From a virus (taxonomy: Duplodnaviria > Heunggongvirae > Uroviricota > Caudoviricetes), in the IMG/VR virus record IMGVR_UViG_2565956731_000005, positions 1 through 42,839 of that record: DNA of 42,839 nt. One strand, given 5' to 3'. The notes under the pieces are model-generated. The model did not search any database. It was not told the DNA's origin and worked only from the letters and a program-made list of their open reading frames with translations. Of the stretch, positions 1-40,751 are shown in pieces. Position numbers and translations under genes: made by a program. Position 1 is the stretch's first letter, and every line of letters starts with the position of its first letter.

Positions 1-516
1 ATGAAATTTAAAAAATGTCTTCTGCCTGTGGCAATGTTAGCGTCATTCACTCTGGCAGGATGCCAGTCAAATGCTGATGATCATGCCGCCGATGTTTATC
101 AAACCGATCAACTGAATACCAAACAAGAAACTAAAACCGTTAATATTATTTCCATTCTTCCCGCAAAAGTTGCCGTAGACAACGCCCAAAATAAACGGAA
201 CGCACAAGCCTTCGGCGCGCTTATTGGCGCTGTCGCTGGCGGTGTTATCGGCCACAACGTCGGGTCTGGCAGCAATTCCGGAACGACGGCAGGTGCAGTT
301 GGCGGCGGAGCTGTAGGCGCGGCAGCGGGTTCTATGGTGAATGATAAAACCTTAGTGGAAGGTGTTTCTTTAACATATAAGGAAGGCACCAAAGTGTATA
401 CCTCCACCCAGGTGGGTAAAGAGTGCCAGTTTACGACAGGTTTAGCCGTTGTTATTACCACGACGTATAACGAAACGCGTATTCAGCCAAATACCAAATG
501 TCCTGAAAAGAGCTAA
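1..516 (+). CDS. Glycine-zipper outer-membrane lipoprotein (YcfJ-like)
   Basis: Lipoprotein signal peptide with lipobox LAGC at the N-terminus; Gly-rich GxxxG zipper segment including LIGAVAGGVIGH, as in YcfJ/17-kDa surface-antigen family proteins. Strong RBS-coupled gene follows. May be host or phage cargo. Confidence 0.7.
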   Translation: MKFKKCLLPVAMLASFTLAGCQSNADDHAADVYQTDQLNTKQETKTVNIISILPAKVAVDNAQNKRNAQAFGALIGAVAGGVIGHNVGSGSNSGTTAGAVGGGAVGAAAGSMVNDKTLVEGVSLTYKEGTKVYTSTQVGKECQFTTGLAVVITTTYNETRIQPNTKCPEKS

Positions 517-3285: not shown

Positions 3286-5961
3286 CTACTTAGATCCCCC
3301 CTCCGGATTCAGCAAATTATTCAGCTCCGCAAGATGTGACTCTATTTTTTCGATTCTTCTACGCAAATAAGCAGACTCAAGCCATAAGCACTGGTCAGCA
3401 CGAATCCCCCACCTATTTCCAGCTTTGCGTACCAGAATTCGCTCTTCTGTTTCGTATTCTTCTTCCTTCTCAATTTCGACACCATCCACAACTTCAGTAA
3501 TCGTCCTTACCGCCATCACTGGCTCGTATTTATCATCCCATTCATCGTAACAGAGAAGGCCAAATCGGGTTCCATCAACCCCATGCGCGAGGAAAGCGTC
3601 TCTTACCTGTTGTGCTATGACACCAAAATGCCAGCGGGCACCATCTCCCTTTTCCCTGATAGCCTCAAGCCAGCGAAAAGCTACGATCCTGATATCTCCC
3701 CATGCATCCAAAATTACATCACCTTCATAACCAGGGGACATATTCAGACTGAGTTCACTCGTTGTTAGCGGGTCGCTTTTTTCCCTACCATCTGAGGTGT
3801 TTATTGAGCCTGAAACAGCATAAATCTGAGTTGGCCTGTTATCTGGTACACCAACACTGTAAGAATTATCCAGATAAGGATGCCAGTGACCATTTGGACT
3901 TACTTTCCATCTCCAGGTGTCATTACTTCCCAAATGTAAATCAGCTCCATTTGCAGCCATTAAAGCTACATTGGAAGTGCTCATGTACATCTGGAAATAA
4001 CCAACGCCTTTTCTCTGCCATTCATAAAGCAAGCCTGTTCCCTGTTCGTTGTTGAACTTTAATGCTTTTATAGGTGAATTTTCTCCCCATGTTGTATCAC
4101 CTGAATAAATTACATGAGGAACCACCTCTGGATTATCAGAGATACATATTTCTTTAGATGGTAGAGATAGCGTTCTTTTATCTCCTGCACCAAGCGCATA
4201 AATCAGAATGGTGCGTCTGGTTGCCCCCATAACATCAGAATGCTCAGATACTATCGTTACCGATGGATAAAGAACACCATCGTAATCAACAAAATGCATC
4301 CCTTCTGATTCGCGGAATGTAGGGGTAGAGCCAATGATTCGTGGTAAATCCGTATCACCCAAATTAGAAATGGCTTTCTGCACATCATTTCCCAGCAGAT
4401 CGCAACTTGATAAATATTGAGTCTGCCCAAACGTAGTATTCCCACAATACATATACAGATGCGAGCCATCAGAACAAAATCCACTAAGTGATGTGGTTTC
4501 ATCACCACCGACTTGCGAAAGTTGAAGAGTAAACTCATGAGTACACAGGGCTGAATAATCACCTGGTTTATCAAAAATGTCTGTGGAAAATACACGAAAC
4601 GTTTGCTTATTGTAGTCGCCATTGTCGGTGAAACGGATAATCATCCATTTTCCGTCTAATGTAATAGTCGGAGTAGTTGAACTACCCGCTGTACGATTTT
4701 CCTCTACAACCCTAAACATTTCAGGAGAATCTATTTCCCCCTCGGAGTTGCTCCTCCAGGAAAATCTAACCACCCCATGTGAACCACCTACAGAAAAATC
4801 AAAGTCAGTATGGGTAGTAGAGCCTGCCGGTGTATCTGGAGCTGTAGTCCATAACTTAATCGCATTGTCTATATTCTGTACCGCTATTCCCTGATGACCC
4901 AGCCTGTCCTCAGGAAGCATAAAATCAGAAGATGTGTTTTTAATTTTTGAATCAGCAGAATATTTATTCCAGACAGAAACAGTAGTAGGGTTTCCATCTA
5001 TTTCTGTATTGTGATTGGAATAATAAGCTCTGCTTACAGGATCATATGCAAAAGTTTGCAATGTTCTTATTTGTCCGCGACCATTAGCAATTGGTATAAA
5101 CCGTATAGCGGCATTAGACTCATGTCCAATGGAATTAACGTCCCATGCAGGTCGCTTGCTTGTAACTAATTCGCCATTAACAGGAATGACTTTTCCGCCA
5201 ACCAACCATTTCCCGTTAATATAGGTATTCCTGAAAAATGTTCTGGAGGTAAAATAAGTTTTACCCTGCATATCAATAATTCTAGATGAAATAGCAGCCT
5301 CAAGTGATTCAAAAGCTAAAGAATCATTTGTAACACCATCACCTACAGCACCAAAATCTTTAGGGCTAACTGTGTCACGCATCTTATCCTGGAACGTTCT
5401 GTATACTGCTCCAGAACCATACTGAATAAACCAACCAAAACCACCAACAACTCCGGCGATTGCAGCATCAACATAATTACGCATTGAGCGATTATTTACA
5501 GCATCCTGCTCAAGTGATGGATCTGCAAGGTTAGAAATTCTGTTTTGTTTTGCATCGTAATATTTTGCAAGCAGAGAGGGCTTCATCAATGCACGTCTGA
5601 ACCACCCAAAACATTGCTGGATCAGCATCGTCAGGTAGTCAAAGGCATCTTCATGCACTTCGGGGAAAAACTTTCCCTGATTGCGGAGGTCTGTCTCCTG
5701 CACTACATCAAGCACACGATCTATCGTAATTAGCCAGCCAACAGCAAGCGGAGACGGAAGAACCACAGAACCGCCACTATAAGTGCCCGCCCCAGTTACC
5801 GTATAACCGGTATCCAGGACCAATTCTGTTACGTTTCCGTTCAGGTCAGACACCTGAACAACCAGGTCGGATTTTTTGAAAATACGGAAGGTATACGGAA
5901 ATGATGTCGTAACTCCGTTACCGGTGTATTCGTTGTGGTCAACTTCGGTTGAGACCGTCAT
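3286..5961 (-). CDS. Tailspike / tail fibre with depolymerase-type beta-helix and C-terminal intramolecular chaperone (peptidase S74-like)
   Basis: Conserved podovirus tail-fibre N-terminus (MTVSTEVDHNEYTGNGVTTSFPYTF); DFGAVGDGVTNDS pectate-lyase/beta-helix signature; C-terminal region with WHFGVIAQQV resembling the auto-cleaving chaperone domain. RBS GGAGA upstream. Confidence 0.85.
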   Translation of the reverse strand: MTVSTEVDHNEYTGNGVTTSFPYTFRIFKKSDLVVQVSDLNGNVTELVLDTGYTVTGAGTYSGGSVVLPSPLAVGWLITIDRVLDVVQETDLRNQGKFFPEVHEDAFDYLTMLIQQCFGWFRRALMKPSLLAKYYDAKQNRISNLADPSLEQDAVNNRSMRNYVDAAIAGVVGGFGWFIQYGSGAVYRTFQDKMRDTVSPKDFGAVGDGVTNDSLAFESLEAAISSRIIDMQGKTYFTSRTFFRNTYINGKWLVGGKVIPVNGELVTSKRPAWDVNSIGHESNAAIRFIPIANGRGQIRTLQTFAYDPVSRAYYSNHNTEIDGNPTTVSVWNKYSADSKIKNTSSDFMLPEDRLGHQGIAVQNIDNAIKLWTTAPDTPAGSTTHTDFDFSVGGSHGVVRFSWRSNSEGEIDSPEMFRVVEENRTAGSSTTPTITLDGKWMIIRFTDNGDYNKQTFRVFSTDIFDKPGDYSALCTHEFTLQLSQVGGDETTSLSGFCSDGSHLYMYCGNTTFGQTQYLSSCDLLGNDVQKAISNLGDTDLPRIIGSTPTFRESEGMHFVDYDGVLYPSVTIVSEHSDVMGATRRTILIYALGAGDKRTLSLPSKEICISDNPEVVPHVIYSGDTTWGENSPIKALKFNNEQGTGLLYEWQRKGVGYFQMYMSTSNVALMAANGADLHLGSNDTWRWKVSPNGHWHPYLDNSYSVGVPDNRPTQIYAVSGSINTSDGREKSDPLTTSELSLNMSPGYEGDVILDAWGDIRIVAFRWLEAIREKGDGARWHFGVIAQQVRDAFLAHGVDGTRFGLLCYDEWDDKYEPVMAVRTITEVVDGVEIEKEEEYETEERILVRKAGNRWGIRADQCLWLESAYLRRRIEKIESHLAELNNLLNPEGGSK

Positions 5962-6064: not shown

Positions 6065-6081
6065 ATTACCTTTCAGGTAAT
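6065..6081. promoter_or_regulatory. 17-bp palindromic operator ATTACCTTTCAGGTAAT
   Basis: Perfect inverted repeat ATTACC-N5-GGTAAT; one of 12 copies of the same motif found at promoter regions in this window. Confidence 0.6.
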
Positions 6082-7407: not shown

Positions 7408-7563
7408 ATGCGTTAAGCACAGCTATATCCGAATTATGGTGGGCTGGGCAGGGGTCCGAAAGGACGCCGGTACCACTTAGGCCGGTACGCCAACCTTGTC
7501 CAGTTCACCACCAGTAATTGGCGTTGCGGTGGTGATTAAAATCACTAAGTGGAGATAACCACC

Positions 7564-8274
7564 ATGGCTAATGCTCAAACTGCCATCTTCAAATTTGAAT
7601 CTGTTAACCCTATCCGTTCCATCATTATCGATGGCCAACCATGGTTTGTAGCCCAAGACGTTTGTAGTGCGCTGCGTATCCAAAACGTCACCCAAGCACT
7701 TGAAAAACTGGATGATGATGAAAGGTCTATGTTCAACATAGGGCATGAACATCGTGCAATTTTTGACAGCCGAGTAAAAGAGATCAACATCATCTCCGAG
7801 TCAGGCCTCTACACACTGATCCTCCGCTGCCGCGATGCGGTGACACCAGGCACTATCCCCTACCGCTTTCGTAAATGGGTTACAGGTGAGGTTCTTCCTC
7901 AGATCCGCCGCACCGGAAGTTACATTAAAAACTCGCTCCCGCAGGAAGAACGCATAAAGATGGTTGCCGACCAGGTAGCCAACGCCACGGCGTCAGCAGT
8001 AATGCAGGCGATGAAGATAGAGAACAAAACCTACAGTGCCCCACTGAAGCCCGGCTACCGCAGTCTGATTCATTCTCCGTCTGGTGTTCTCGGCCTGACG
8101 GAGAACTCACTGCTGATGAATTTGCTGAACCAGTTACAGGAAGACGGGCACGACGTATCGGGCGCGGCGGCGGAGCTGACCACCATGTTCTGCTACATCG
8201 TCGGTGTGAGTAAATGCCTGCGTGATATCCAGACCCACGCGGAGTACATCAACGACAAGGCAGGGTTCTTCTGA
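7564..8274 (+). CDS. ant: Antirepressor Ant (Bro-N domain plus KilAC-like C-terminal domain)
   Basis: Bro-N signature (AIFKFESVNPIRSIIIDGQPWFVAQDVCSAL…YRFRKWVTGEVLPQIRRTGSY); RBS GGAG 9 nt upstream of the ATG at 7564. Confidence 0.85.
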   Translation: MANAQTAIFKFESVNPIRSIIIDGQPWFVAQDVCSALRIQNVTQALEKLDDDERSMFNIGHEHRAIFDSRVKEINIISESGLYTLILRCRDAVTPGTIPYRFRKWVTGEVLPQIRRTGSYIKNSLPQEERIKMVADQVANATASAVMQAMKIENKTYSAPLKPGYRSLIHSPSGVLGLTENSLLMNLLNQLQEDGHDVSGAAAELTTMFCYIVGVSKCLRDIQTHAEYINDKAGFF

Positions 8275-8343
8275 CGGCGGCGGCACAGGGATGTGCCTTT
8301 AAATAATTCTGTACGATTGCAGACTGTGGGTGAATAGCGTACT

Positions 8344-8360
8344 ATTACCTCAAGGGTAAA
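8344..8360. promoter_or_regulatory. Operator-like palindrome ATTACCTCAAGGGTAAA
   Basis: Motif copy about 60 bp upstream of the small ORF at 8420. Confidence 0.5.
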
Positions 8361-8419
8361 CGGATTGGTTTCATTTTTATTAATCCGTGTAATGAACTTA
8401 TGAGATATGAGGTAATGTC

Positions 8420-8599
8420 ATGCGAAACGAAAAATTGCAGATGCGTAGAGCGCAAGCTGCCGCAAGACGTTCTTTCAATGGAAGCGTAGAGTACGTAAAA
8501 GTTACTATGACAAAAGATCACGCAAGTCGCGTATCCCGCGCTTTCTTTGATTCTCGTAACAATAAGGAAAATTATGAGTTCGTCTGCGTCGCAGAATGA
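8420..8599 (+). CDS. Small basic protein (59 aa), possible ribbon-helix-helix antitoxin/regulator
   Basis: Below the ORF-track size cutoff. RBS GAGG 8 nt upstream; overlaps the start of the downstream gene by 26 bp (operon-coupled). VKVTMTKDHASRVSRAFF is consistent with a beta-strand plus helix DNA-binding fold. Confidence 0.35.
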   Translation: MRNEKLQMRRAQAAARRSFNGSVEYVKVTMTKDHASRVSRAFFDSRNNKENYEFVCVAE

Positions 8600-9119
8600 T
8601 AAAAATCAAATTGTCAGATATAAGGGTCGAGTATTGCATACGCAAAATTTCTCGGCCCTTTGTGCATCTGATCTTGAGCTGAAGAAAGTATCTGATGCCT
8701 TTACCCAGTATTGGAAAACGGGATACCATCCATCTCTTGGTAAAGATGCTGCATTTGCTCGTCCGACAGAAATGCTTAAACTAAATGTCAGGCATACTCA
8801 TGTCGATAACCAAGACTATATTCCAGAAGATAGTGATAAAAAACACACTGGTAAAAAATCATCTTGGGATGCATGGAAAAATATAGCGTCTGTACAAGTA
8901 AAATGCATACCAACAAGTGATTGCTTTTTAGTTTATTCGGTAAATCACAATCGTGATGCGCTGGTTATGTTTTTTGTTGACGCAGATGCCCACAACATAA
9001 CTGAGCAAGAAGAGTTTAAAGAGGCAGCAATCACTATCAGTTATCAATTCTTTGAGAAAACAAAAACAGAACCAATGCCTTTAGAAGAAGATCTTTTTTC
9101 TGATAAATGGAAGGAATAA
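8574..9119 (+). CDS. YafO-like protein (putative toxin / mRNA interferase family), product uncertain
   Basis: RBS AAGGAAA upstream of the ATG at 8574. Central region (GKDAAF…NVRHTHV…TSDCFLVYS…ALVMFFVDADAH) resembles YafO-family toxins as recalled; AT-rich relative to neighbours. Confidence 0.45.
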   Translation: MSSSASQNDKNQIVRYKGRVLHTQNFSALCASDLELKKVSDAFTQYWKTGYHPSLGKDAAFARPTEMLKLNVRHTHVDNQDYIPEDSDKKHTGKKSSWDAWKNIASVQVKCIPTSDCFLVYSVNHNRDALVMFFVDADAHNITEQEEFKEAAITISYQFFEKTKTEPMPLEEDLFSDKWKE

Positions 9120-9205: not shown

Positions 9206-9217
9206 GTGACATGTCAC
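9206..9217. repeat. Perfect 12-bp palindrome GTGACATGTCAC (copy 1 of 3)
   Basis: Identical 12-mer also at 26395..26406 and 30805..30816; flanking sequence is not conserved. Confidence 0.9.
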
Positions 9218-17176: not shown

Positions 17177-19647
17177 CAGAATCCCCCAACAGTAAGGCGA
17201 GGAATAACGGCAAGAACAGACAGCGGCAACGGATCAAGCTGACGGATTTTTACACGTCCGTTTTTGCCCCAGTTACTGTCCAGTTTCACTTCTACTTTTC
17301 CGGTAGCGTCATCAACAGGATCATCGTAGAACTCGAATTCACGCTGTGGATATTCGTACCATTTACCGCCGGGCGTAGTCGCCCAGATGCCGCGACTGGC
17401 ATTCACAACCAGAGTAACGGAGGGGATCACCTGTTTTTTGTCCAGCAGCGTTTCCTGTCCGTTAATGTTGATATCCAGTGTTTCGAATTCAGCAGTTATT
17501 GGCAGGCCGATGTGCACTACAGCCCCCGGAGATTCCAGCGTGACGGCACCTCCGGAAACCACTTTCTGTGGTTCCACGTTCGCATCAGAGAGAATGTTTA
17601 CGGTCTGGCCTTCAAGATGAGACAGGCCTCCAAATGTCCGGCGCGCCATCTGCCAGTTCGTGGTGGCCGCATTCCTGAGGGATGGCGGGACGTTCCTGTT
17701 GGCACGAACCACTACAGCGATATTGCTGGTTACAGAAATAATGTCGCAACGTAATTCTTGTGACACTTCATCGCCAGTATCAGGATCAGTTCCGGCATAA
17801 GGGAACTGTAGTTGCGCACCGACATCACTACTGGTGAAGTACGCACCACCAGAAACACTGATTGTATATTCCGCTCGGTAATCCCATTCACCAGAACCAC
17901 CAGTGATGGTCATCGTTCTGTCAGACGTATTTCTTCCATCATAGCTAAGGCCAGAATCAACAAAGAAAGCATCTTCATCGCTGGTAAATAAACGGCTGGA
18001 CAGTCGCTCTATGTATCTCACTGTTTGCCCGTTAACGGTTCGGTTAACGACGAAATACACCGCATCTTCATTGCCTTCGCTGATACTGCATGTGCTTTCA
18101 TATTTCCCGGTACTGGATTGTGGTGCCCATGCAAAAACCTGCTGATCACGCAAATAGGTCATCACCAGTAATTTACCGTCATCACGAATGCAGAAGGCGC
18201 TGGAGTAAGGGACAATAGAGAAGCACCAGTCAACAATGCTGTGCTTCTGAAAAAGATGATTGGCAAGGATGGTCAGGTCGTTCCCCTGATAGCCGTCAAC
18301 ATCGAATGAGTAGGCCAGATCACGGACAACGCTGCCTTTCTCCTGGACGAACAGAGCAATATTCGCCACGGCAATTGGCGGGACGTTGCTTGAGCCATTT
18401 GATCCCTGAGAGCTGAATGCAAATGATGATGGGGTTAACACTTTGTTCTGGTCGCCGGTGATGACGTACTCACCTCCGGAAGTCAGCGCCACCAGCGAAC
18501 CAACATCAATCAGGTGACGGATCTCATTAACCTGACGCCCGGCATAGGTGTAGATAATTCTGTCGTCATCCTGCGTAGGATTGCTTTTGCCAAAATCCTT
18601 ATAATCCCCGGTACGGCTGGCCCAGATAGTCTGAGGGAACGCAGTCGATGCGGCGAAGTAAAGACGTTGTTGATAATAAACAACAGTGCCAGGATAACCA
18701 TTAACACTGTTCCAGGCATATTTAGCCCATTTATAGCTGGCATTATCCTCGCCAACGACCTGCGAAGGGATATAGGAAATCACCTCAGCAGTTGCAGTAG
18801 TGCCATTTGCAGCAGTGATACGGGCAATGCCAAAACCACTGTGCAGATACTCCCACTCAATGCCAGTATCATCATCACCGGATCCGCCCCAGCCATCCCA
18901 TGATGTGCCTTCTGTATGCGAAGGGCGCAAAGTGCCTGTTTTGCCTGCTGTAACGGCGCGATAGTAGTTACTGTCTGCACGGCGAATATCGCCAATCGAC
19001 GTACTCTTACTGGTTTCCCATACCGGCACTGAATCCACTGCAGGCTGTTCCAGATAGAATAATTTGCCTACCTGCTCCGCGCCAAAAATAGAGGCGCTTG
19101 CCGTTAACGTAATTGTCCCGGTGCTGGCGCTGGCATAAACCGTCACTGACTCGTCAATATTGATATCTTCAAATGGCCCGTTCTTCGTTACCACATCAAC
19201 CAGTTGCCAGTTGTCATGCGCATAGCGACGCAACTCTTTCGGCGGGTATGCCGGATGAACCAGCGTAAGCACGTCTGCGCTTTGCGTGAATTTAATTCGG
19301 AACAGATCGGCTTCAGTATATGGCGTGGCAATTTCATAAATAACATTGCTGCTGTTCAGCACCAACGCACCATCTTTGATAACGCGCATGTACTGGTGTC
19401 CGAACTCCAGAGCATAAGTCTGAACCGTCGAGAACTGGAACGGGATCAGACGGCATTTCCGATTTGGGTATTTGGCGGCACCGACAAAACGCGTACCAGG
19501 TCGATTCTCAACGCCGCCATACTGCCGCACGATAAAATTATCGCACTTGCGCAATGCCACCTGGTACTTCGCCATGTCGATACGTCCGTACAACGACGGT
19601 CCAATCTCACCACCAGCAAAGCTGGGCTGGATCCAACTGATAGCCAT
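17176..19647 (-). CDS. Tail tubular protein B-like (nozzle)
   Basis: 823 aa, by size and position equivalent to T7 gp12; follows the tube-A-like gene. Confidence 0.6.
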   Translation of the reverse strand: MAISWIQPSFAGGEIGPSLYGRIDMAKYQVALRKCDNFIVRQYGGVENRPGTRFVGAAKYPNRKCRLIPFQFSTVQTYALEFGHQYMRVIKDGALVLNSSNVIYEIATPYTEADLFRIKFTQSADVLTLVHPAYPPKELRRYAHDNWQLVDVVTKNGPFEDINIDESVTVYASASTGTITLTASASIFGAEQVGKLFYLEQPAVDSVPVWETSKSTSIGDIRRADSNYYRAVTAGKTGTLRPSHTEGTSWDGWGGSGDDDTGIEWEYLHSGFGIARITAANGTTATAEVISYIPSQVVGEDNASYKWAKYAWNSVNGYPGTVVYYQQRLYFAASTAFPQTIWASRTGDYKDFGKSNPTQDDDRIIYTYAGRQVNEIRHLIDVGSLVALTSGGEYVITGDQNKVLTPSSFAFSSQGSNGSSNVPPIAVANIALFVQEKGSVVRDLAYSFDVDGYQGNDLTILANHLFQKHSIVDWCFSIVPYSSAFCIRDDGKLLVMTYLRDQQVFAWAPQSSTGKYESTCSISEGNEDAVYFVVNRTVNGQTVRYIERLSSRLFTSDEDAFFVDSGLSYDGRNTSDRTMTITGGSGEWDYRAEYTISVSGGAYFTSSDVGAQLQFPYAGTDPDTGDEVSQELRCDIISVTSNIAVVVRANRNVPPSLRNAATTNWQMARRTFGGLSHLEGQTVNILSDANVEPQKVVSGGAVTLESPGAVVHIGLPITAEFETLDININGQETLLDKKQVIPSVTLVVNASRGIWATTPGGKWYEYPQREFEFYDDPVDDATGKVEVKLDSNWGKNGRVKIRQLDPLPLSVLAVIPRLTVGGF

Positions 19648-25442: not shown

Positions 25443-25459
25443 ATTACCTTCCAGGTAAG
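25443..25459. promoter_or_regulatory. Operator-like palindrome ATTACCTTCCAGGTAAG, with TTGACA at 25422..25427
   Basis: Motif copy downstream of a consensus -35 hexamer; points rightward toward the tRNA. Confidence 0.45.
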
Positions 25460-25780: not shown

Positions 25781-25857
25781 GTGGCATTAGCTCAGTTGGA
25801 CAGAGCAACCGCCTTCTAAGCGGTTGGTCGCAGGTTCGAATCCTGCATGCCACGCCA
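25781..25857 (+). tRNA. tRNA-Arg (anticodon UCU), CCA end encoded
   Basis: Cloverleaf folded by hand: acceptor GTGGCAT/ATGCCAC, D-arm GCTC-AGTTGGACA-GAGC, anticodon stem ACCGC/GCGGT with loop CTTCTAA, T-arm GCAGG-TTCGAAT-CCTGC, discriminator G then CCA. Resembles argU. Confidence 0.9.
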
Positions 25858-25900
25858 GAATCACGCCTAAGGACCGTGATGCCAGAAGTTCCAGGGGCTT

Positions 25901-25942
25901 GGCGGTGATGGTTTCCCTTGAAGGGCTATCACCGCCCTTTTT
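25901..25942 (+). terminator. Rho-independent terminator T1 downstream of the tRNA
   Basis: Long hairpin GGCGGTGAT…ATCACCGCC followed by CTTTTT. Confidence 0.7.
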
Positions 25943-26020
25943 ACAGCAGGACGCCATTGCGATGACTTCATGCTGTAAACCAGTACAGCCACGGAAGGCA
26001 TAACTCATTGCTTCCAGTTC

Positions 26021-26045
26021 GCCCGGTTCGTCCGGGCATTTTTTT
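26021..26045 (+). terminator. Rho-independent terminator T2
   Basis: GCCCGG-TTCGT-CCGGGC followed by ATTTTTTT; the T-run abuts the RBS of the next ORF. Confidence 0.7.
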
Positions 26046-26057
26046 AAGGTGAAAATC

Positions 26058-26390
26058 ATGAAAGAGAAGACTGCAGCTGAGCGCTATGCCGCAGCTATCA
26101 ATGCCGCGATGGCGATTGTAAACCTGCGTGAAGAGATTAAAGATCTCCTTGCAATTATCCATAACAACCTGACATGTACAGAGTTGCTTGGCGGTCAGTA
26201 CAACGGTGAGGCGGTGAAGGAGGCATTTAAAAATGCCGAGGTAGGAATAATTCCAGCAAACTATGTCAAGGCTGAATGTGTGCTCCTAAAGGCACGAGTG
26301 AGTCTGCATGAAGATCCTGGTAATCTCGGTCGAACTGCAATGCGTTACGTGATAGACGAGTCGAATGCCAAACACAATCTACCGAAATAA
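26058..26390 (+). CDS. Hypothetical protein (moron, antisense to the late operon)
   Basis: RBS AAGG 8 nt upstream of the ATG at 26058 (the track GTG start is 26049); followed by the palindrome and a terminator. Confidence 0.5.
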   Translation: MKEKTAAERYAAAINAAMAIVNLREEIKDLLAIIHNNLTCTELLGGQYNGEAVKEAFKNAEVGIIPANYVKAECVLLKARVSLHEDPGNLGRTAMRYVIDESNAKHNLPK

Positions 26391-26394
26391 CACC

Positions 26395-26406
26395 GTGACA
26401 TGTCAC
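26395..26406. repeat. Perfect 12-bp palindrome GTGACATGTCAC (copy 2 of 3)
   Basis: Begins 5 bp after the stop of 26058..26390. Confidence 0.9.
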
Positions 26407-26410
26407 AAAC

Positions 26411-26437
26411 AGCCAGCCTATGAGCTGGCTTTGTTTT
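26411..26437 (+). terminator. Rho-independent terminator
   Basis: AGCCAGC-CTATG-AGCTGGCT followed by TTGTTTT. Confidence 0.65.
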
Positions 26438-26480: not shown

Positions 26481-29126
<2,646 letters not shown>

Positions 29127-29915
29127 GAAGTCGCTGTCTTCCCCGTAGTCATCAACCCATTTCTGCAACTGCTGTTTGTTAGTGCCTTCCACCGTCCGGC
29201 TGTCAATCTGCGCAGTTTTCCAGCGGTGTTTATATTTGCGGAAACATTCGCGGAAACGCCCGGTGTTACGTGTAGGGTTTCCGAACGCCACCCAGATAAT
29301 CTCAGTGTCTTCGTCCGTAAGCGCACCCTCAGCAACTTCCCACACCAGATCCGCAATGTTCGACGCTTCATCGAATACCACGATGATGCGTTTGCGCTCG
29401 TTGTGTAGTCCTGCGAATGCCTCAGTGTTGTGCTCAGACCAGGGGATTGCGTCAGCCCGCCACCGCTTGTCGTGCCCAGGATCATTGCTGTACATCGCGG
29501 TAGCGGTACAGGTAAACCAGTCTTTCGTGATAGCAAGGTTCGACCACTTGATAATTTCCGGCCAGGTCTTCGTTCGTAGCTGGTTGTCGGTGTTGGCGGT
29601 CACCACGACCTTACAATCCTCGCAAGTGGACATGCCCCAGTTGATCAGCATTGAGATGAATGCGGATTTACCAATACCGTGACCAGAAGCGCGTGCCAGC
29701 ATAAGCGGCTGATAGCGCGTCTCTGGATTCTGCAGGTGATCACGTATCTCTCGGAACGCATCAGCCTGCCACTGACGTGGGCCGGTGGCATGTGCCAGTT
29801 CAGTCCCCTCTTCCCCCCATGGGAACGCATAGAGGGCATAGCCAAGCGGATCGTGAGTGAACCCTGCAATATCCTCGATTAACTGCTCTTCAGGAGATAA
29901 CGCTGTATCTGTCAC
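29127..29915 (-). pseudogene. Terminase large subunit, N-terminal (ATPase) fragment
   Basis: Walker A-like ASGHGIGKS; start overlaps the terS stop. The track ORF's last residues ([18 protein letters not shown]) are translated from the IS end, not from terminase. Confidence 0.8.
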
Positions 29916-30586
29916 TGATTACCATCCTGACGTTCTTTGAGTCGCTTCCTGGCTGCTGCTATGCGATCAGCAATTGTCACATTCACATTAACATCCAGAC
30001 GTTCTTTGAACGCGTTGACATCAACATGCTTACCAATCAGCTCAAGGTTCTTCACCTTGTCAGGCCATTTAATTTTTTTGAGGATTGTCTCTATCGAATC
30101 CTCGTTCATGTTCATGATGGTCGATGACAGATCAAAGCCACTAAGCGTAGTGCGCCAGATTTTCGGCCACTCGCGGATTGGCTTAAGGCTCCCATCGTCG
30201 TTGAGGATGTCGATCACGTCCATCTGGTCGATCTCCACCAGGCGCATGAGAACGTAATCAGCACTGACGCGCATTCGTTTGTTGCGCTCTTCCATCAGCT
30301 CGGCAATCCGTTTCTGAATGCGTTCATCGCGCATCATGACACTGGCTTTAACTGCCGCTGTATTTGGGGAGAATCCTGCGTTAATCGCAGCCTGAGTCTG
30401 ATTTTCAGGCGTTTTGATGTATGACTGGCAATAAGCCTCCTGCATTGCTGTTAGTGGCTTAAATTGCGTTGATTTGCGTTTATAGGTTTTAGGTTCAGCA
30501 GGCATCATAACCACCGTGGTAATAGTTACCGTTGTGGTAATAGTACCATGCAAAATAAAGCCGCCATAGTTGGCGGCAGTATTCAA
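29912..30586 (-). CDS. Terminase small subunit
   Basis: Terminase_2-like small-subunit features (…MQEAYCQSYIKTPENQTQAAINAGFSPNTAAVKASVMMRDERIQKRI…), directly upstream of and overlapping terL. Start may be the internal Met near 30508. Confidence 0.65.
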   Translation of the reverse strand: MNTAANYGGFILHGTITTTVTITTVVMMPAEPKTYKRKSTQFKPLTAMQEAYCQSYIKTPENQTQAAINAGFSPNTAAVKASVMMRDERIQKRIAELMEERNKRMRVSADYVLMRLVEIDQMDVIDILNDDGSLKPIREWPKIWRTTLSGFDLSSTIMNMNEDSIETILKKIKWPDKVKNLELIGKHVDVNAFKERLDVNVNVTIADRIAAARKRLKERQDGNQ

Positions 30587-30816
30587 AGTCCATCAAATTC
30601 ATCGTAAAAACTCTCGTCAAGATACCCTTCCCATTTACCGCGAATGAAAATTACATCCTCGCCGCAAGGGTGCTGACTGTCGATAACTATATCCCTCCTG
30701 GCGCAACCATACTTATGCATGAGAAATTTAACCTCTTTCGGAAAATTTGCTGAGTTATCTCTCATATCTTCAAGGTCGTAGCGTATTTTTGGCATAACAC
30801 CTTCGTGACATGTCAC
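30583..30816 (-). CDS. Hypothetical protein upstream of terS
   Basis: Track start is a GTG inside the palindrome; an alternative ATG lies at about 30795. Coupled to terS. Confidence 0.4.
   Translation of the reverse strand: MTCHEGVMPKIRYDLEDMRDNSANFPKEVKFLMHKYGCARRDIVIDSQHPCGEDVIFIRGKWEGYLDESFYDEFDGL
30805..30816. repeat. Perfect 12-bp palindrome GTGACATGTCAC (copy 3 of 3)
   Basis: Lies at the junction of genes 30813..31154 and 30583..30816, just upstream of the packaging genes. Confidence 0.9.
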
Positions 30817-31154
30817 ACTATTAATTTCGTTTCATGCCAGCCTTTGGTCACCCAGCATTGCGAGTCACCATTACACGGGCATGAATTCACAGGAACTCTC
30901 TCGCCGCACTTACCGCAACGTTTTCTGCTGATCGATTTTATACGCCCGCGCACGCGTGCATCATCCTGGCGGATCAGTAACGCTATATACTCACCAAATT
31001 CGTAAGGCGCACGCCCGGGGCGACGCGTGGCACAGTTACTCTCCAGCATTTCAATTTCCTGAGCATCAAGCACAATTTCCAGCTTACGCACACCAGATGC
31101 AGCTTGTCTGGCTCTCTGAGCGGCTTTGCGCTCTGCTGCTGATTTAGCCATCAA
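30813..31154 (-). CDS. Basic protein with C-terminal Cys-rich zinc ribbon; candidate regulator
   Basis: N-terminal Lys/Arg/Ala-rich helix; C-terminal CGKCG…CPCNGDSQC. Last gene before the packaging genes. Confidence 0.5.
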   Translation of the reverse strand: MMAKSAAERKAAQRARQAASGVRKLEIVLDAQEIEMLESNCATRRPGRAPYEFGEYIALLIRQDDARVRGRIKSISRKRCGKCGERVPVNSCPCNGDSQCWVTKGWHETKLIV

Positions 31155-35375: not shown

Positions 35376-36172
35376 GCTTCAGGGCTGTTCCAGTGCGGAA
35401 CGTTGTTATCAGGTAATGTTGATTGCTTCTGTCTGCTAATCTGCAGCCGCCTTGCCAGCTTCTGCTCCCACTGTGCCTGATGGTATGCCTTACCCTCAGC
35501 CATCCAGTAAATTCTGAACTCTACAAGTTCCTGTGCCGTTGGCAGACTGTCCAGGTAGATCCCCTGCAATGAGCTTTTCCGAAGAAAGTCATCTGATGGC
35601 TGCCATTGTTCATGCATGACAAATTTGCCTAATTGCCCTGGCCCACCAGGAGGAACAAAGTTATTCATCACGGCGTTGTTTGCGCCGGGGTCATGAGGCA
35701 CAGAATCCCCGCTTTTTGTCCTGCTCTCCCTCTCTTGGTTAAATGACTGGTTATATGACTGGTTCTGGATCCCGTTTTTGGGATCATTCAACATCCCGTT
35801 TTTGGGATCATTCAACATCCCGTTTTTGGGTATATTCCCGTTTTCGGGAACATTACCGTTTTCGGGTTCATTGCCCCCCTCCCGGTTGCCTTTAATGTTC
35901 CCGTTTTTGGTTATATTAAGAGAGAAAACCCGCACTCTTTTTGTCGCTCCCTTTCTCTCTCCGGTATCTGAAATAAGCCCCATTTTCATGAGCGATATAA
36001 GCCCGGCCTGCACGGTTTTTTTATTCAGGCAAGTGTCTTTAACGAGGCGTTCTATGCTGGGGTAGCAGAGGTTATATTCATCGGCTCTGTCAGCCATCGA
36101 GAGCAGTATGAGCTTTAATGATGAGCTACCTGGATCTGTCTCCCAGGCCCAATCTGTTGCATGTCTGCTCAT
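35357..36172 (-). CDS. Replication initiator (O-like) with ori iterons inside the coding sequence
   Basis: N-terminal DNA-binding-like domain; central repeats (PENGNVPENGNIPKNGMLNDPKNGMLNDPKNG) are encoded by the iteron array, as the lambda origin lies inside O. Confidence 0.7.
   Translation of the reverse strand: MSRHATDWAWETDPGSSSLKLILLSMADRADEYNLCYPSIERLVKDTCLNKKTVQAGLISLMKMGLISDTGERKGATKRVRVFSLNITKNGNIKGNREGGNEPENGNVPENGNIPKNGMLNDPKNGMLNDPKNGIQNQSYNQSFNQERESRTKSGDSVPHDPGANNAVMNNFVPPGGPGQLGKFVMHEQWQPSDDFLRKSSLQGIYLDSLPTAQELVEFRIYWMAEGKAYHQAQWEQKLARRLQISRQKQSTLPDNNVPHWNSPEAWKDFL
35769..35917. repeat. Replication-origin iteron array
   Basis: Two perfect 24-bp direct repeats ATCCCGTTTTTGGGATCATTCAAC (35769..35792 and 35793..35816) plus at least four degenerate copies of CCCGTTTT(T/C)GGG, followed by an A+T-rich stretch. 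Confidence 0.8.
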
Positions 36173-36187
36173 GATTAATCTCCGCTA

Positions 36188-36388
36188 TCAGCTTGAGTGT
36201 TGTGGGGAGGAATTAATCATGATCTGCTTAATCTCTGCCCTTATGCGACGGTTTGATTCCATGGTGCACTCAACACAGTGTCCGTTGTAAACCCAGCGTT
36301 CACTGTCATGTCCATGCTTACATGGTTTTCCGGTGTAGTAGCGTTTAAGTCCGCGCTTTGCGGCATCAATACGTGTAATGATTTCCAT
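36188..36388 (-). CDS. Small Cys/His-rich protein at the cII position
   Basis: Likely start is the ATG at about 36388 (track ORF runs to 36451). Contains GKPCKHGH…NGHCVEC, a putative zinc finger; sits between the Cro-like and O-like genes. Confidence 0.4.
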   Translation of the reverse strand: MEIITRIDAAKRGLKRYYTGKPCKHGHDSERWVYNGHCVECTMESNRRIRAEIKQIMINSSPQHSS

Positions 36389-39021: not shown

Positions 39022-40044
39022 ATGTCTATCAATGCACTTAAGGCAGCGGCTACCGGTAACCAAGTTGCACATCATAATGAGAAACCAACAACTCTGGCCG
39101 GACTTCTGGCAGACCCAAAAATTAAAGCTCAGATGGCTTTGGCACTTCCAAAGCACATGACAGCAGACCGTCTGGCGCGCATAGCAACCACAGAGATCAG
39201 AAAGGTTCCAAAACTTGCATCATGCGACCAAGCCAGCTTCCTGGGGGCAATTATGCAATGTGCCCAATTGGGTCTTGAACCAGGCGGAGCTCTTGGACAC
39301 GCTTACCTGATACCGTTCGACAAACGCCAGAAAGTAAATGGAAGATGGGAAACCGTATCTACAGAAGCACAGCTGATTATCGGCTATCGCGGAATGATTG
39401 ACCTTGCCCGCCGCTCTGGGCAGATCCTGAGTATCTCGGCTCGTACCGTACATACAAACGACAAATTCAGCTACTCATACGGCCTGGAAGAAACGCTCGA
39501 GCATTTACCTTGCGAAACAGGTGACCGCGGAGAATTAACGCACGTTTACGCCGTTGCACGACTGAAAGATGGCGGAGTCCAATTTGAAGTTATGAGCCGG
39601 GCAGACGTTGAGAAAGTTCGTGCACTGAGCAAAGCCGGTAGCAGTGGCCCATGGGTTGATCACTTCGATGAGATGGCTAAAAAAACAGTAATTCGCCGAC
39701 TGTTCAAATATCTTCCTGTTTCTATTGAAATGCAGAAGGCTGTTGTTATGGATGAGCGCGCTGAAGCTGGACTTAGCCAAGATAACGCAGCTGTTATCAC
39801 TGGTGAATATTCCGTAGTTGACGATGAGCGTCAACACCTGTCGCCAATTTCAGATTCAGAACGAGAAGAAGCTCGAGAATATATCATCGCGATACTTAAT
39901 AGCCTGGATCCATCTGCTGAAGATGCAAAAACGATGTTCAAGCGCGCTGAAAATGAAATTAACACCATGGCTGAAAAGCTCGGTGATGAATATCACCAAA
40001 AATTCATGATGACGCTTAACGATATGCGTCCAGAATTCGAGTAA
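39022..40044 (+). CDS. recT: RecT-family single-strand annealing recombinase
   Basis: RecT-like sequence and length; RBS AAGGAG; paired with the YqaJ exonuclease. Confidence 0.8.
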   Translation: MSINALKAAATGNQVAHHNEKPTTLAGLLADPKIKAQMALALPKHMTADRLARIATTEIRKVPKLASCDQASFLGAIMQCAQLGLEPGGALGHAYLIPFDKRQKVNGRWETVSTEAQLIIGYRGMIDLARRSGQILSISARTVHTNDKFSYSYGLEETLEHLPCETGDRGELTHVYAVARLKDGGVQFEVMSRADVEKVRALSKAGSSGPWVDHFDEMAKKTVIRRLFKYLPVSIEMQKAVVMDERAEAGLSQDNAAVITGEYSVVDDERQHLSPISDSEREEAREYIIAILNSLDPSAEDAKTMFKRAENEINTMAEKLGDEYHQKFMMTLNDMRPEFE

Positions 40045-40451: not shown

Positions 40452-40751
40452 GTGAGAAAGTTAAGCCGACTTGAAAAATATCACATGAACAAGGTTTCAA
40501 TGCGCAGCCCTTCAAAGGTTGTTGCCGTTACTCCTGCGGCGATAGAGATCGAAAAACGCGCGATTGAAAGAGAGAAAAAAGGGCAGTTCCGCATTGCCGC
40601 CCACCTTTGGCTTCAGTGTATGGATGTTGCTTCTGGTGATGTTGAACGTGCAAGGATCGCGGTTCGCAGGGACCAATGTATCACAAAAGGTAACGGCCTT
40701 CGCCGTGGCGACTATAGCGGCATAGGATGTTGTGGGGTGGTTTATGACTAA
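40452..40751 (+). CDS. PerC-family transcriptional regulator-like protein
   Basis: AIEREKKGQFRIAAHLWLQCMD…ERARIAVRRDQCI resembles the PerC signature as recalled; start uncertain. Confidence 0.5.
   Translation: MRKLSRLEKYHMNKVSMRSPSKVVAVTPAAIEIEKRAIEREKKGQFRIAAHLWLQCMDVASGDVERARIAVRRDQCITKGNGLRRGDYSGIGCCGVVYD

What the first reader, a model, noticed from the sequence alone, without database searches (positions are those of the whole stretch)
30813..31154. Zinc-ribbon protein upstream of the packaging genes as a candidate late-gene regulator
This 113-aa protein has a basic helical N-terminus and a C-terminal CGKCG…CPCNGDSQC zinc ribbon. It is the last gene before the packaging and virion genes, and its stop is inside one copy of the GTGACATGTCAC palindrome. 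No Q-like antiterminator or other late regulator is otherwise recognisable in the window.
Basis: inference. Interest (0 to 1): 0.4.

Follow-up and report, generated by a model that had tools for sequence, protein, structure and literature searches.

The report
Phage DNA-binding protein with its operator
The gene encodes a small, uncharacterised phage DNA-binding protein whose probable binding site, a 12-base palindrome, sits in the gene's own stop codon in many unrelated phages, which argues that it regulates DNA locally and is probably not the switch for late genes.

Summary
The ORF is real. It lies on the minus strand at 30813..31151 and encodes 112 aa from the ATG. It is the homologue of epsilon15 gp49, phiV10 gp55 and N15 gp46 (phrog_536, no Pfam family). 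Its TGA stop lies inside GTGACATGTCAC, which occurs 3 times in the window against 0.15 expected.

The main new result is comparative. In 217 non-identical phage loci encoding a family member (3.8 Mb), GTGAC-N2-GTCAC occurs 335 times against about 3.5 expected. Other spacings are nearly absent. In 142 loci the motif overlaps or abuts the gene's stop, including N15-like relatives at about 35% identity. P2 has neither the gene nor the site.

The AlphaFold model (pLDDT 92) most resembles ribbon-helix-helix (RHH) DNA binders, with an added Cys4 zinc module. The palindrome is therefore very probably the protein's operator.

The "late-gene activator" reading is weakly supported:
- Homologues with their sites coexist with Q (N15, phiKO2, ZF40) or with a small regulator gene in the ogr position (P2-like phages).
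- The sites lie at the 3' ends of transcription units, not at promoters.
- Repressor operators precede each late unit.
- There is no Ogr/Delta or Q signature.

My best guess is a site-specific RHH regulator acting as an autoregulatory roadblock or boundary element. The site resembles matS with one central base removed.

The parts
30813..31151 (-). Gene for the 112-aa RHH-like, Cys4 zinc protein. It is the homologue of epsilon15 gp49, phiV10 gp55 and N15 gp46 (phrog_536). Its start overlaps the stop of the upstream ASCH-domain gene.
30805..30816 (.). Site A: GTGACATGTCAC. It contains the gene's TGA stop and is the probable operator of the protein.
   Evidence: The same register is seen in epsilon15 (39612), in most relatives at 60-97% identity, and in N15-likes as GTGACTGGTCAC.
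26395..26406 (.). Site B: GTGACATGTCAC between the terL stop with its bidirectional terminator (26411..26430) and the end of a reverse-oriented moron gene (26049..26390).
   Evidence: The syntenic copy in epsilon15 is at 2142, just after terL.
9206..9217 (.). Site C: GTGACATGTCAC at the end of the long virion operon. It is followed on the minus strand by an imperfect hairpin plus a T-run, and it faces a convergent YafO-like toxin gene.
   Evidence: The syntenic copy in epsilon15 is at 19517, inside the gp18 stop and directly before an annotated terminator.
30583..30795 (-). Small ORF (70 aa from the ATG, 77 aa from the GTG inside the palindrome), phrog_1541, function unknown. It is inserted between site A and the terminator. 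It is absent from epsilon15.
   Evidence: (annotated as 35754..35966 in the HL15 phage).
30560..30577 (-). Intrinsic terminator at the end of the early-right operon.
   Evidence: The equivalent is annotated in epsilon15 at 39646..39672.
30507..30541 (.). Two adjacent repressor-operator-like sites (ATTACC-N5-GGTAAT type) just upstream of terS.
   Evidence: 15 copies in the window against 1.2 expected. The epsilon15 record annotates the equivalent site 12..27 as repressor binding.
29912..30475 (-). terS (small terminase), the first packaging gene. The probable start is the ATG that gives MPAEP...
   Evidence: Pfam Terminase_2 E=1.4e-29 and phrog_51. Start taken by analogy with epsilon15.

Best explanation
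The gene encodes a small site-specific DNA-binding protein.

Architecture (from the model and the family alignment):
- An N-terminal basic helix.
- A ribbon-helix-helix (RHH) core: strand around residues 22-28, helices 30-42 and 52-75.
- A Cys4 zinc module (residues 79-99).
- A short C-terminal helix.

Binding (inferred): it most likely binds as a dimer to the 14-bp operator YGTGAC-N2-GTCACR. I infer that the conserved basic helix reads the invariant GTGAC half-sites and the beta-ribbon reads the variable central two bases.

Operator position (shown): one operator is built into the gene's own stop codon. Inferred consequences: freshly made protein can load in cis. Once bound, it should block RNA polymerase at the end of its own gene. 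That would give negative autoregulation and control of read-through into whatever lies downstream, as LacI does at O3.

In this epsilon15-like prophage (shown): the three operators sit at the 3' ends of three successive transcription units, namely the early-right operon, terS-terL and the long virion operon. Two of the three sit at junctions with convergent morons, beside terminators.

Proposed role (inferred): the protein acts as a symmetric boundary or roadblock element that insulates these units during lytic growth. I do not think it is the activator of late genes.

Shown versus inferred:
- Shown: the gene-motif linkage, the motif enrichment, the strict spacing, and the fold resemblance.
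- Inferred: direct binding, dimerisation, zinc binding, and the roadblock or insulator role.

My own split of confidence: binding to the motif about 0.8, roadblock or insulator role about 0.35.
For: Gene-site linkage:
- In 217 non-identical loci (3.82 Mb) encoding a family member, GTGAC-N2-GTCAC occurs 335 times against 3.5 expected from base composition.
- Spacers 0, 1, 3, 4, 5 and 6 give 1, 8, 0, 0, 4 and 4 occurrences.
- 211 of 217 loci have at least one site, and 142 have it at the gene's stop.
- The same register (TGA stop inside the first half-site) holds in epsilon15-likes, in N15-likes at about 35% identity, and in a 28%-identity metagenomic relative.
- ZF40-likes have the site 3-5 nt after the stop.

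Co-variation between protein clade and site:
- The site centre is AT in the epsilon15-, ZF40- and P2-like clades, TG in N15-likes (58 of 67 sites), and AC, GC or CC in the Vibrio clade.
- The predicted beta-strand differs between these clades, while the RK..QR.R helix stays conserved.

Conservation and controls:
- The three sites are at the same syntenic places in epsilon15 and in this window, although the proteins are about 76% identical.
- P2 lacks both the gene and the site. P2-likes with the gene carry 2-3 sites phased 32-33 bp apart.
- In a sample of 80 IMG/VR stretches holding TGTGACATGTCACA (83 sites), 20 stretches hold the gene. A further 36 sites lie in DNA homologous to gene-carrying loci.

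Fold:
- AF2 pLDDT 92.
- There are weak hits to RHH_5, RHH_1, RepB-RCR_reg and YbfE.

Context:
- Sites lie beside terminators at the ends of units.
- About 50% of epsilon15-clade sites are within 30 nt of a terminator-like hairpin, against 11% of random positions.
- RNA folding around site A is unremarkable (z = -0.10), which favours a DNA-level site.
Against: - There is no experimental binding data. No paper in the held library mentions the motif.
- Terminator adjacency is specific to one lineage: 0% in N15-likes and 5-19% in other clades.
- In ZF40 and N15 some sites lie inside genes (cII-like gene, gp08, repA). A single 'boundary element' role therefore does not fit all lineages.
- In P2-likes the array lies between terminators next to cos, a zone that is probably not transcribed. 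This suggests a DNA-level role other than a transcription roadblock.
- The co-variation rests on only about three independent clades.
Confidence: 0.5

Rival explanations
1. Late-gene switch. The protein is the last product of the early-right operon. It binds the three palindromes beside the terminators that separate the early operon and the late units. There it lets RNA polymerase read through, or it activates nearby late promoters. This would act as a timer, in the way lambda Q acts next to its own gene.
For: - The gene lies at the distal end of the early-right operon, directly before the packaging module.
- All three sites in this phage lie in the late region at unit junctions, next to terminators.
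- No Q-like protein was found in the window.
- In Vibrio phage K308 a site lies 20 bp upstream of terS.
- The C-terminal half shows weak similarity to the RNA-polymerase-binding TraR/DksA zinc finger.
Against: - The family coexists with Q-like regulators in N15, phiKO2 and ZF40. In P2-likes it coexists with a small regulator gene in the ogr position. In those phages its sites are not at late promoters.
- No Ogr_Delta or Q Pfam signal.
- The distance from site A to terS is not conserved, and an ORF is inserted between them here.
- Repressor operators precede each late unit.
- RHH proteins bound to DNA usually repress.
- SPN1S has a version with its N-terminal helix replaced.
Confidence: 0.15
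2. DNA-architectural protein of the MatP/matS kind. The protein marks one to three sites on the phage chromosome. It either bridges them or organises a nucleoprotein complex near the packaging or replication regions. The site in its own stop codon ensures cis-loading. Effects on transcription would be secondary.
For: - The half-sites are identical to those of matS (GTGAC[AG]N[TC]GTCAC; PMC3603311), with one central base fewer.
- P2-likes carry 2-3 sites phased 32-33 bp apart between cos and the terminator after Q, a zone bounded by terminators.
- ZF40-like phages carry a pair of sites 2.0-2.5 kb apart that, in ZF40 itself, brackets cI-cro-cII. N15-likes pair a site in repA with the one at gene 46.
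- So far the family has been seen only in phages of Enterobacterales, Vibrio and Aeromonas. From my own knowledge, these are the groups that have MatP.
Against: - No sequence relationship to MatP: no hits to PF06303 or PF17414, and hhalign is not significant.
- No matS-type N3 site occurs in 3.8 Mb.
- There is no predicted coiled-coil or other tetramerisation element like that of MatP.
- The positions of the sites are not conserved between phage types.
Confidence: 0.15
3. The palindrome is not this protein's site. It is bound by another factor, either a host protein or another phage protein. Alternatively it is a recombination or mosaic-junction sequence, and the gene merely sits next to one copy by descent.
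For: - Sequence similarity between relatives breaks off right after each palindrome, with different morons or ORFs downstream. This is how module-boundary sequences behave.
- In the IMG/VR sample, 27 of 83 sites lie in DNA unrelated to the gene-carrying loci I held.
Against: - Descent alone does not explain exact conservation of the motif at the stop codon from epsilon15-likes to N15-likes at about 35% protein identity.
- Nor does it explain clade-specific changes of the centre that also appear at the distant second sites.
- Nor does it explain co-occurrence in P2-likes where gene and site are 0.5-4.6 kb apart, while P2 lacks both.
- No other gene is shared by all the lineages.
Confidence: 0.1

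Closest known systems
MatP / matS (E. coli Ter macrodomain organiser)
   Same: Both involve an RHH-type DNA binder with a basic helix before the beta-strand. The half-sites GTGAC...GTCAC are identical. The host range overlaps that of MatP-bearing bacteria. There are only a few sites per replicon.
   Different: The phage site has a 2-bp centre, not 3 bp (335 N2 sites against 0 N3 sites in 3.8 Mb). There is no MatP N-terminal four-helix bundle and no C-terminal coiled coil. No hit to PF06303 or PF17414, and hhalign is not significant. The phage protein has a Cys4 zinc module that MatP lacks.
Small RHH repressors (Arc, Mnt, CopG, ParD/TacA antitoxins, TraM/TraY)
   Same: These are the best structural matches. 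They share the beta-alpha-alpha core, palindromic or phased repeated operators, and small size.
   Different: The phage protein has an extra conserved N-terminal basic helix and a C-terminal Cys4 module. Its operator lies at the 3' end of its own gene rather than at its promoter. No Pfam RHH model reaches threshold.
LacI at operator O3, which overlaps the 3' end of lacI (transcription roadblock with tmRNA tagging; Abo et al. 2000, recalled from memory)
   Same: A regulator whose binding site overlaps the end of its own coding sequence. This is a precedent for autoregulation by blocking its own transcript.
   Different: LacI is an unrelated fold (HTH). For the phage protein the roadblock is only inferred.
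Lambda Q and the P2 Ogr / P4 Delta late activators
   Same: In this phage the genomic position resembles that of Q: last early gene, cis site next to its own gene, terminator and late genes downstream. Like Ogr, it is small and cysteine-rich.
   Different: No homology to either. The cysteine spacing is CX2C-X8-C-X7-C rather than the Ogr spacing CX2C-X22-C-X4-C. The site is not the TGT-N12-ACA of Ogr. The family coexists with Q-like proteins and, in P2-likes, with a gene in the ogr position in other phages.
TraR/DksA C4 zinc-finger proteins (F TraR, E. coli YbiI, P2 Orf82)
   Same: The arrangement helix, CxxCG..[LI]P knuckle, helix aligns weakly. Profile against the PDB gives E=0.03-0.045, and pairwise hhalign against TraR gives 37% probability.
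   Different: No member hits PF01258. The second CxxC is absent. The aligned helix is helix B of the predicted RHH core, so it cannot also be a free helix that inserts into the polymerase channel.

Membership tests
PHROG 536 ('transcriptional regulator') | Full-length match to the family HMM | tested here: met
   E=1.9e-54, residues 2-112 against profile positions 2-114 of 115. The family name is an annotation, not a tested function.
Ribbon-helix-helix (RHH) superfamily | Beta-strand, helix, helix core fold | tested here: inconclusive
Ribbon-helix-helix (RHH) superfamily | Match to an RHH sequence model at its threshold | tested here: not met
   Only sub-threshold hits in 5 of 60 members (RHH_5, RHH_1, RepB-RCR_reg), plus YbfE NF008671 at E=0.065.
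Ribbon-helix-helix (RHH) superfamily | Obligate dimer that inserts an antiparallel beta-ribbon into the major groove of a palindromic or repeated operator | not testable with these tools
   Indirect support only: a conserved 12-14-bp palindrome linked to the gene and arrays phased 32-33 bp apart in P2-likes.
Ogr/Delta zinc-finger late activators | Match to Pfam Ogr_Delta, with C-X2-C-X22-C-X4-C spacing | tested here: not met
   No hit at E up to 1 for the protein or for 60 relatives. The spacing here is C79-X2-C82-X8-C91-X7-C99.
Ogr/Delta zinc-finger late activators | It is the late activator of its phage, with sites upstream of late promoters | tested here: not met
   P2-like phages that carry the family also carry a small regulator gene in the ogr position after gpD. 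In those phages the family's sites lie near cos, not at the late promoters.
Lambda Q-type antiterminators | Match to Q family models | tested here: not met
   No Pfam or PHROG hit to antiterminator families. N15, phiKO2 and ZF40 carry a separate Q-like gene as well as the homologue.
DksA/TraR C4 zinc finger | Match to PF01258, with two CxxC pairs | tested here: not met
   No PF01258 hit in 60 members. Only the first CxxC is present. Similarity to TraR and YbiI is borderline (E=0.03-0.045; hhalign probability 37%).
MatP (macrodomain Ter protein) | MatP N-terminal and C-terminal domains (PF06303, PF17414) | tested here: not met
   No hits. hhalign of the family profile against E. coli MatP gives probability 0.5%. 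The MatP sequence I used was confirmed as genuine.
MatP (macrodomain Ter protein) | 13-bp site GTGAC-RNY-GTCAC | tested here: not met
   The half-sites are identical, but the spacing is 2, not 3. There are 0 N3 sites in the window and 0 in 3.8 Mb of family loci.

The most novel reading that the evidence does not exclude
A widespread phage-borne counterpart of the bacterial MatP/matS system. An RHH-zinc protein is loaded in cis from a site embedded in its own stop codon. It marks one to three matS-like (N2) sites on the phage chromosome. It bridges or insulates them to organise phage DNA, for example by separating transcription, replication and packaging zones. It might also interfere with host MatP or MukBEF-type machinery acting on phage DNA.
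Probability: 0.1. Interest if true: 0.8.

Novelty: new variant of a known kind. Interest (0 to 1): 0.55.

Why it matters
The family (phrog_536) is common in temperate phages and prophages of E. coli, Salmonella, Klebsiella, Yersinia, Pectobacterium, Vibrio and Aeromonas. It is annotated only as "hypothetical" or, by remote similarity, as "transcriptional regulator".

Pairing the family with a precise operator (YGTGAC-N2-GTCACR) turns an anonymous gene into a testable regulator with a predicted regulon of one to three sites per phage. It also gives annotators a cis-element to mark.

An operator embedded in the regulator's own stop codon, conserved from podoviruses to N15-like phage-plasmids, is an unusual and compact regulatory design.

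The near-identity of the site to matS, which prophages otherwise avoid (PMC3603311), raises a concrete question about cross-talk with host chromosome organisation.

For epsilon15-like phages, which are used as reporter and biocontrol phages (phiV10, SPN1S), the result also bears on late-gene control. That control probably involves repressor operators at each late unit rather than a dedicated activator.

Tried and rejected
- **Ogr/Delta, Q and DksA/TraR membership.** No Pfam hits for the protein or for 60 relatives. Only borderline profile hits to TraR and YbiI.
- **Homology to MatP.** hhalign was not significant. My last large protein search, seeded with MatP, returned only near-identical MatPs, so I could not build a diverse profile.
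- **RNA-level function of the palindrome.** The fold around site A is no better than shuffles (z = -0.10). A 12-nt palindrome can form only a 4-bp stem.
- **The palindrome as a sigma-70 promoter.** GTGACA resembles a -35 hexamer. Epsilon15 has a possible -10 at 17 bp, but this window does not. Rejected.
- **The palindrome as the prophage repressor's operator.** The annotated operator is a different sequence, ATTACC-N5-GGTAAT.
- **The gene as a mobile cassette with a target-site duplication.** There is no site or half-site upstream of the gene.
- **Defence or anti-defence role.** No PADLOC hits.
- **Terminator adjacency as a family-wide rule.** It holds only for the epsilon15 clade.
- **P2-type cos match in the P2-like loci.** No exact match. 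Only a C-rich run similar to the complement of P2 cos.
- **Literature.** No paper in the held library contains the motif in a phage context. Papers on epsilon15-like phages (vB_EcoP_ZX5, epsilon15 packaging) do not discuss this gene. The MatP-matS structure paper was not held.
- **Searches that could not be run as planned.** The family alignment was too diverse for pattern-based locus search. The afdb50 fold library was unavailable. BFVD returned only a fragment of the same family.
Full report
**What the window is.**
The window is an epsilon15-like (Uetakevirus) prophage of E. coli.
- The region of the finding is 97-98% identical to phiV10, O157 typing phages 9 and 10, TL-2011b and PAS61. The gene corresponds to phiV10 gp55 and epsilon15 gp49.
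- The phage's main coding strand is the window's minus strand. The early-right operon runs from about 36.8 kb down to 30.8 kb. It contains a cro-like gene, replication genes and nin-like accessory genes.
- The packaging and virion genes follow, from 30.5 kb down to 9.4 kb. Beyond them lie morons, the tailspike (5961..3286) and the lysis cassette.
- terL is split by an IS21-family element.

**The observation.**
- The ORF is real. It runs from 30813 to 31154 on the minus strand.
- Almost all of 613 close homologues are 112 aa, so the start is the ATG at 31151. That ATG overlaps the stop of the upstream ASCH-domain gene.
- The TGA stop (30815..30813) lies inside GTGACATGTCAC at 30805..30816.
- The palindrome occurs three times (9206, 26395, 30805) against 0.15 expected. 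No shuffle reached three.
- The statement that this is the last gene before the packaging genes is only approximately true here. Between it and terS lie a 70/77-aa ORF (phrog_1541), a terminator (30577..30560) and two repressor-operator-like sites. In epsilon15 the small ORF is absent.

**The protein.**
- It matches phrog_536 ('transcriptional regulator') over its full length, E=1.9e-54.
- It matches no Pfam family. The only NCBIfam signal is a sub-threshold hit to the LexA-regulated protein YbfE over residues 10-49.
- An exhaustive HMMER search of 1.84 billion representative proteins found only 153 clusters, so the family is compact.
- In an alignment of 60 diverse members, C79 and C82 are invariant. 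C99, R8, R13, E54, L59, P87 and G95 are nearly invariant. A fourth cysteine is always present in the loop between C82 and C99.
- AlphaFold2 run on this alignment gives a confident model, pLDDT 92. It has helix 5-19, an extended segment, helices 30-42 and 52-75, the cysteine knuckle, and helix 100-108.
- A few members give sub-threshold hits to RHH_5, RHH_1 and RepB-RCR_reg.
- I therefore read the protein as an RHH-type DNA binder with an extra N-terminal basic helix and a C-terminal Cys4 zinc module.
- A profile search of PDB sequences gives borderline hits of the C-terminal half to TraR and YbiI, E=0.03-0.045. Pairwise hhalign against TraR gives 37% probability. No member hits the DksA/TraR Pfam model and the second CxxC is missing. 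I treat this as a possible distant resemblance only.

**The key result: the gene and the motif travel together.**
I collected loci around homologues of the window protein, ZF40 gp22, N15 gp46, a Vibrio phage homologue and a P2-like Yersinia phage homologue. I added three distant metagenomic members.
- In 217 non-identical loci (3.82 Mb), GTGAC-N2-GTCAC occurs 335 times against about 3.5 expected from base composition.
- The same half-sites at spacings 0, 1, 3, 4, 5 and 6 occur 1, 8, 0, 0, 4 and 4 times.
- Permuted half-sites have a median of 2 occurrences.
- 211 of the 217 loci have at least one site. In 142 the site overlaps or abuts the stop codon of the gene.

The register is conserved across clades:
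- In epsilon15-likes, in most relatives at 60-97% identity, and in the N15/phiKO2 clade (about 35% identity), the last sense codon ends in G and the TGA stop forms positions 2-4 of the motif.
- ZF40-likes place the motif 3-5 nt after a TAA or TAG stop.
- A 28%-identity relative from a P22-like metagenomic phage has its stop inside GTGACGCGTCAC, with a second copy 1.4 kb away.
- Another distant relative has two adjacent copies at its stop. One very divergent member has none.

Further properties of the site:
- The flanking bases are Y at -1 and R at +13 in 98% of 122 unique contexts, so the site is effectively 14 bp.
- The centre dinucleotide follows the protein clade. It is AT in most clades, TG in N15-likes (58 of 67 sites, including the distant second copy inside repA), and AC, GC or CC in the Vibrio clade.
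- The predicted beta-strand differs accordingly: RKLELxL or ITxLTLRL, against RRDWVLE, against IQELRLKV. The N-terminal RK..QR.R helix is conserved throughout. This is what one expects if the conserved helix reads the invariant half-sites and the ribbon reads the centre. It rests on only about three independent clades.

Controls:
- P2 has neither the gene nor any GTGAC-N(1-4)-GTCAC.
- P2-like prophages that carry the gene almost all have the site.
- In a capped sample of 80 IMG/VR stretches holding TGTGACATGTCACA (83 sites), 20 stretches contain the gene. A further 36 sites lie in DNA homologous to gene-carrying loci. Gene carriers are well under 0.1% of that collection.

**Where the sites are.**
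- In epsilon15 the palindrome is at 39612 (gp49 stop), 2142 (27 nt after the terL stop) and 19517 (gp18 stop). These are the same three syntenic places as in the window.
- In both phages each site adjoins an intrinsic terminator. Sequence similarity between relatives breaks off directly after the site, with different morons or small ORFs downstream.
- Sites B and C lie at convergent junctions with reverse-oriented morons.
- About half of the epsilon15-clade sites are within 30 nt of a terminator-like hairpin, against 11% of random positions. This does not hold in other clades: 0% in N15-likes.
- ZF40-like phages carry a pair of sites 2.0-2.5 kb apart. In ZF40 itself this pair brackets the cI-cro-cII region, with both sites inside coding sequence, and a third site follows gp22.
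- N15-likes have one site about 620 bp into repA and one at the gene 46 stop, directly before the ribosome-binding site of gene 47.
- P2-likes have two or three sites phased 32-33 bp apart. The array lies between a C-rich cos-like run and the terminator after Q, 0.5-4.6 kb downstream of the gene.
- In Vibrio phage K308 one site lies 20 bp upstream of terS.
- The RNA around site A has no unusual structure.

**Is it the late-gene regulator?** I think this is unlikely.
- The family coexists with Q-like proteins in N15, phiKO2 and ZF40. In P2-likes it coexists with a small regulator gene in the ogr position.
- It has no Ogr/Delta or Q signature.
- Its sites are not promoter-proximal, and the spacing from site A to terS is not conserved.
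- The epsilon15 GenBank record annotates repressor-binding sites (ATTACC-N5-GGTAAT) just upstream of terS, of the portal unit and of the tailspike.
- The window has the same arrangement: sites at 30507 and 30525, at 25443, and at 6065. In all there are 15 copies against 1.2 expected. The late units therefore look directly repressor-controlled.
- SPN1S, an isolated Uetakevirus, carries a version whose N-terminal basic helix has been replaced, while the palindrome is retained. This is weak evidence, because that variant may still work.
A local antitermination role cannot be excluded, and I give it about 0.15.

**Most likely mechanism.**
- Shown: the gene-site linkage, the strict N2 spacing, the clade-specific centres, and the RHH-like model.
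- Inferred: a dimer binds YGTGAC-N2-GTCACR. Because one operator overlaps the gene's own stop, newly made protein loads in cis and should stall RNA polymerase at the end of its own gene.
- That would give autoregulation and would gate read-through into downstream genes. The precedent is LacI at O3, which overlaps the 3' end of lacI (from memory, Abo et al. 2000).
- In this phage the three symmetric sites at unit ends would act as bidirectional boundary elements. They would reinforce the terminators between the early operon, the packaging unit, the virion operon and the convergent morons.
- I put about 0.8 on binding to the motif and about 0.35 on the roadblock or insulator role. The arrays next to cos in P2-likes and the intragenic sites in N15 and ZF40 show that the downstream biology differs between lineages, or that it is architectural rather than transcriptional.

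**Relation to known systems.**
- The site equals the matS consensus GTGAC[AG]N[TC]GTCAC (PMC3603311; for example GTGACATTGTCAC in PMC8669397) with one central base removed.
- Prophages were reported to avoid true matS. Consistently, I found no N3 site in 3.8 Mb.
- There is no detectable sequence homology to MatP. The protein also lacks MatP's other domains. This is therefore a functional analogy and a lead, not membership.

**Novelty and interest.**
- I found no paper containing the motif in a phage context in the held library, and no characterisation of epsilon15 gp49 or N15 gp46.
- The protein is a new variant of a known kind: an RHH regulator with an added Cys4 module, paired with a newly recognised operator embedded in its own stop codon, spread across several phage morphotypes.
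- Interest is moderate to fairly high (0.55). The regulator-operator pair is directly testable and the matS resemblance is intriguing. The biological role is still inferred, and the original 'late regulator' idea is probably wrong.

Noticed in passing
window 27173-29126 (inverted repeats 27173-27200 and 29099-29126; istA 27259..28281, istB 28278..29060): An IS21-family (IS100-like) element splits the large terminase gene. The N-terminal part is at 29070..29915 and the C-terminal part at 26481..27206, both on the minus strand. The prophage is therefore probably unable to package DNA.
   Followed up: partly
window 25781-26390: A moron lies between terL and the portal unit. It consists of a reverse-oriented gene (26049..26390, phrog_27507, function unknown) and a tRNA-Arg(TCT) at 25781..25857. 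Palindrome site B lies 5 nt after the end of this gene.
   Followed up: partly
window 6065, 7186, 7279, 8344, 25443, 30507, 30525, 34460, 34522, 36468, 36853, 37565, 37627 and others: There are 15 copies (up to 2 mismatches) of ATTACC-N5-GGTAAT against 1.2 expected. The epsilon15 record annotates this sequence as the repressor operator. Copies precede terS, the portal unit, the tailspike and the BRO-N antirepressor region, as well as the early promoters. Late units may be under direct repressor control.
   Followed up: partly
window 40452-40751 (+) and 36188-36388 (-): Two other unassigned regulator candidates. The first is a PerC-family 'transcriptional activator' (phrog_868, PF06069) in the early-left operon. 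The second is a 66-aa Cys/His-rich protein (phrog_1081; contains CKHGH...CVEC) just after the cro-like gene.
   Followed up: no
L184 11675-11760; also L191-L249 (P2-like prophages): P2-like phages that carry the family have 2-3 copies of the site phased 32-33 bp apart. The array lies between a C-rich cos-like run and the terminator after Q, in a zone bounded by terminators. P2 itself (L269) has neither the gene nor the site.
   Followed up: partly
L177 4292 (N15 genome 33237); L182 5125 and 7622 (ZF40): N15-likes keep a second GTGACTGGTCAC about 620 bp inside repA. ZF40 has two sites 2.5 kb apart that bracket cI-cro-cII, and ZF40-like relatives keep a similar pair 2.0-2.5 kb apart. In both cases the pair of sites flanks the immunity region, which suggests possible looping.
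   Followed up: no
L393 2349-2657 (Salmonella phage SPN1S): In SPN1S (and apparently SPC32H) the first 22 or so residues of the protein, the basic helix, are replaced by unrelated sequence. The rest of the gene and the palindrome at its stop are intact. This may be a natural hypomorph in a viable phage.
   Followed up: partly
window 7549-9119 (+): A BRO-N domain protein (a likely antirepressor) and a YafO-like toxin gene are encoded convergently with the end of the virion operon. Palindrome site C lies at that junction.
   Followed up: no
NC_007804.2 (phiV10) record end, L001: The deposited linear phiV10 sequence ends exactly at the stop codon of gp55. The palindrome is therefore cut in two by the arbitrary opening point of the record and cannot be seen in it.
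   Followed up: yes
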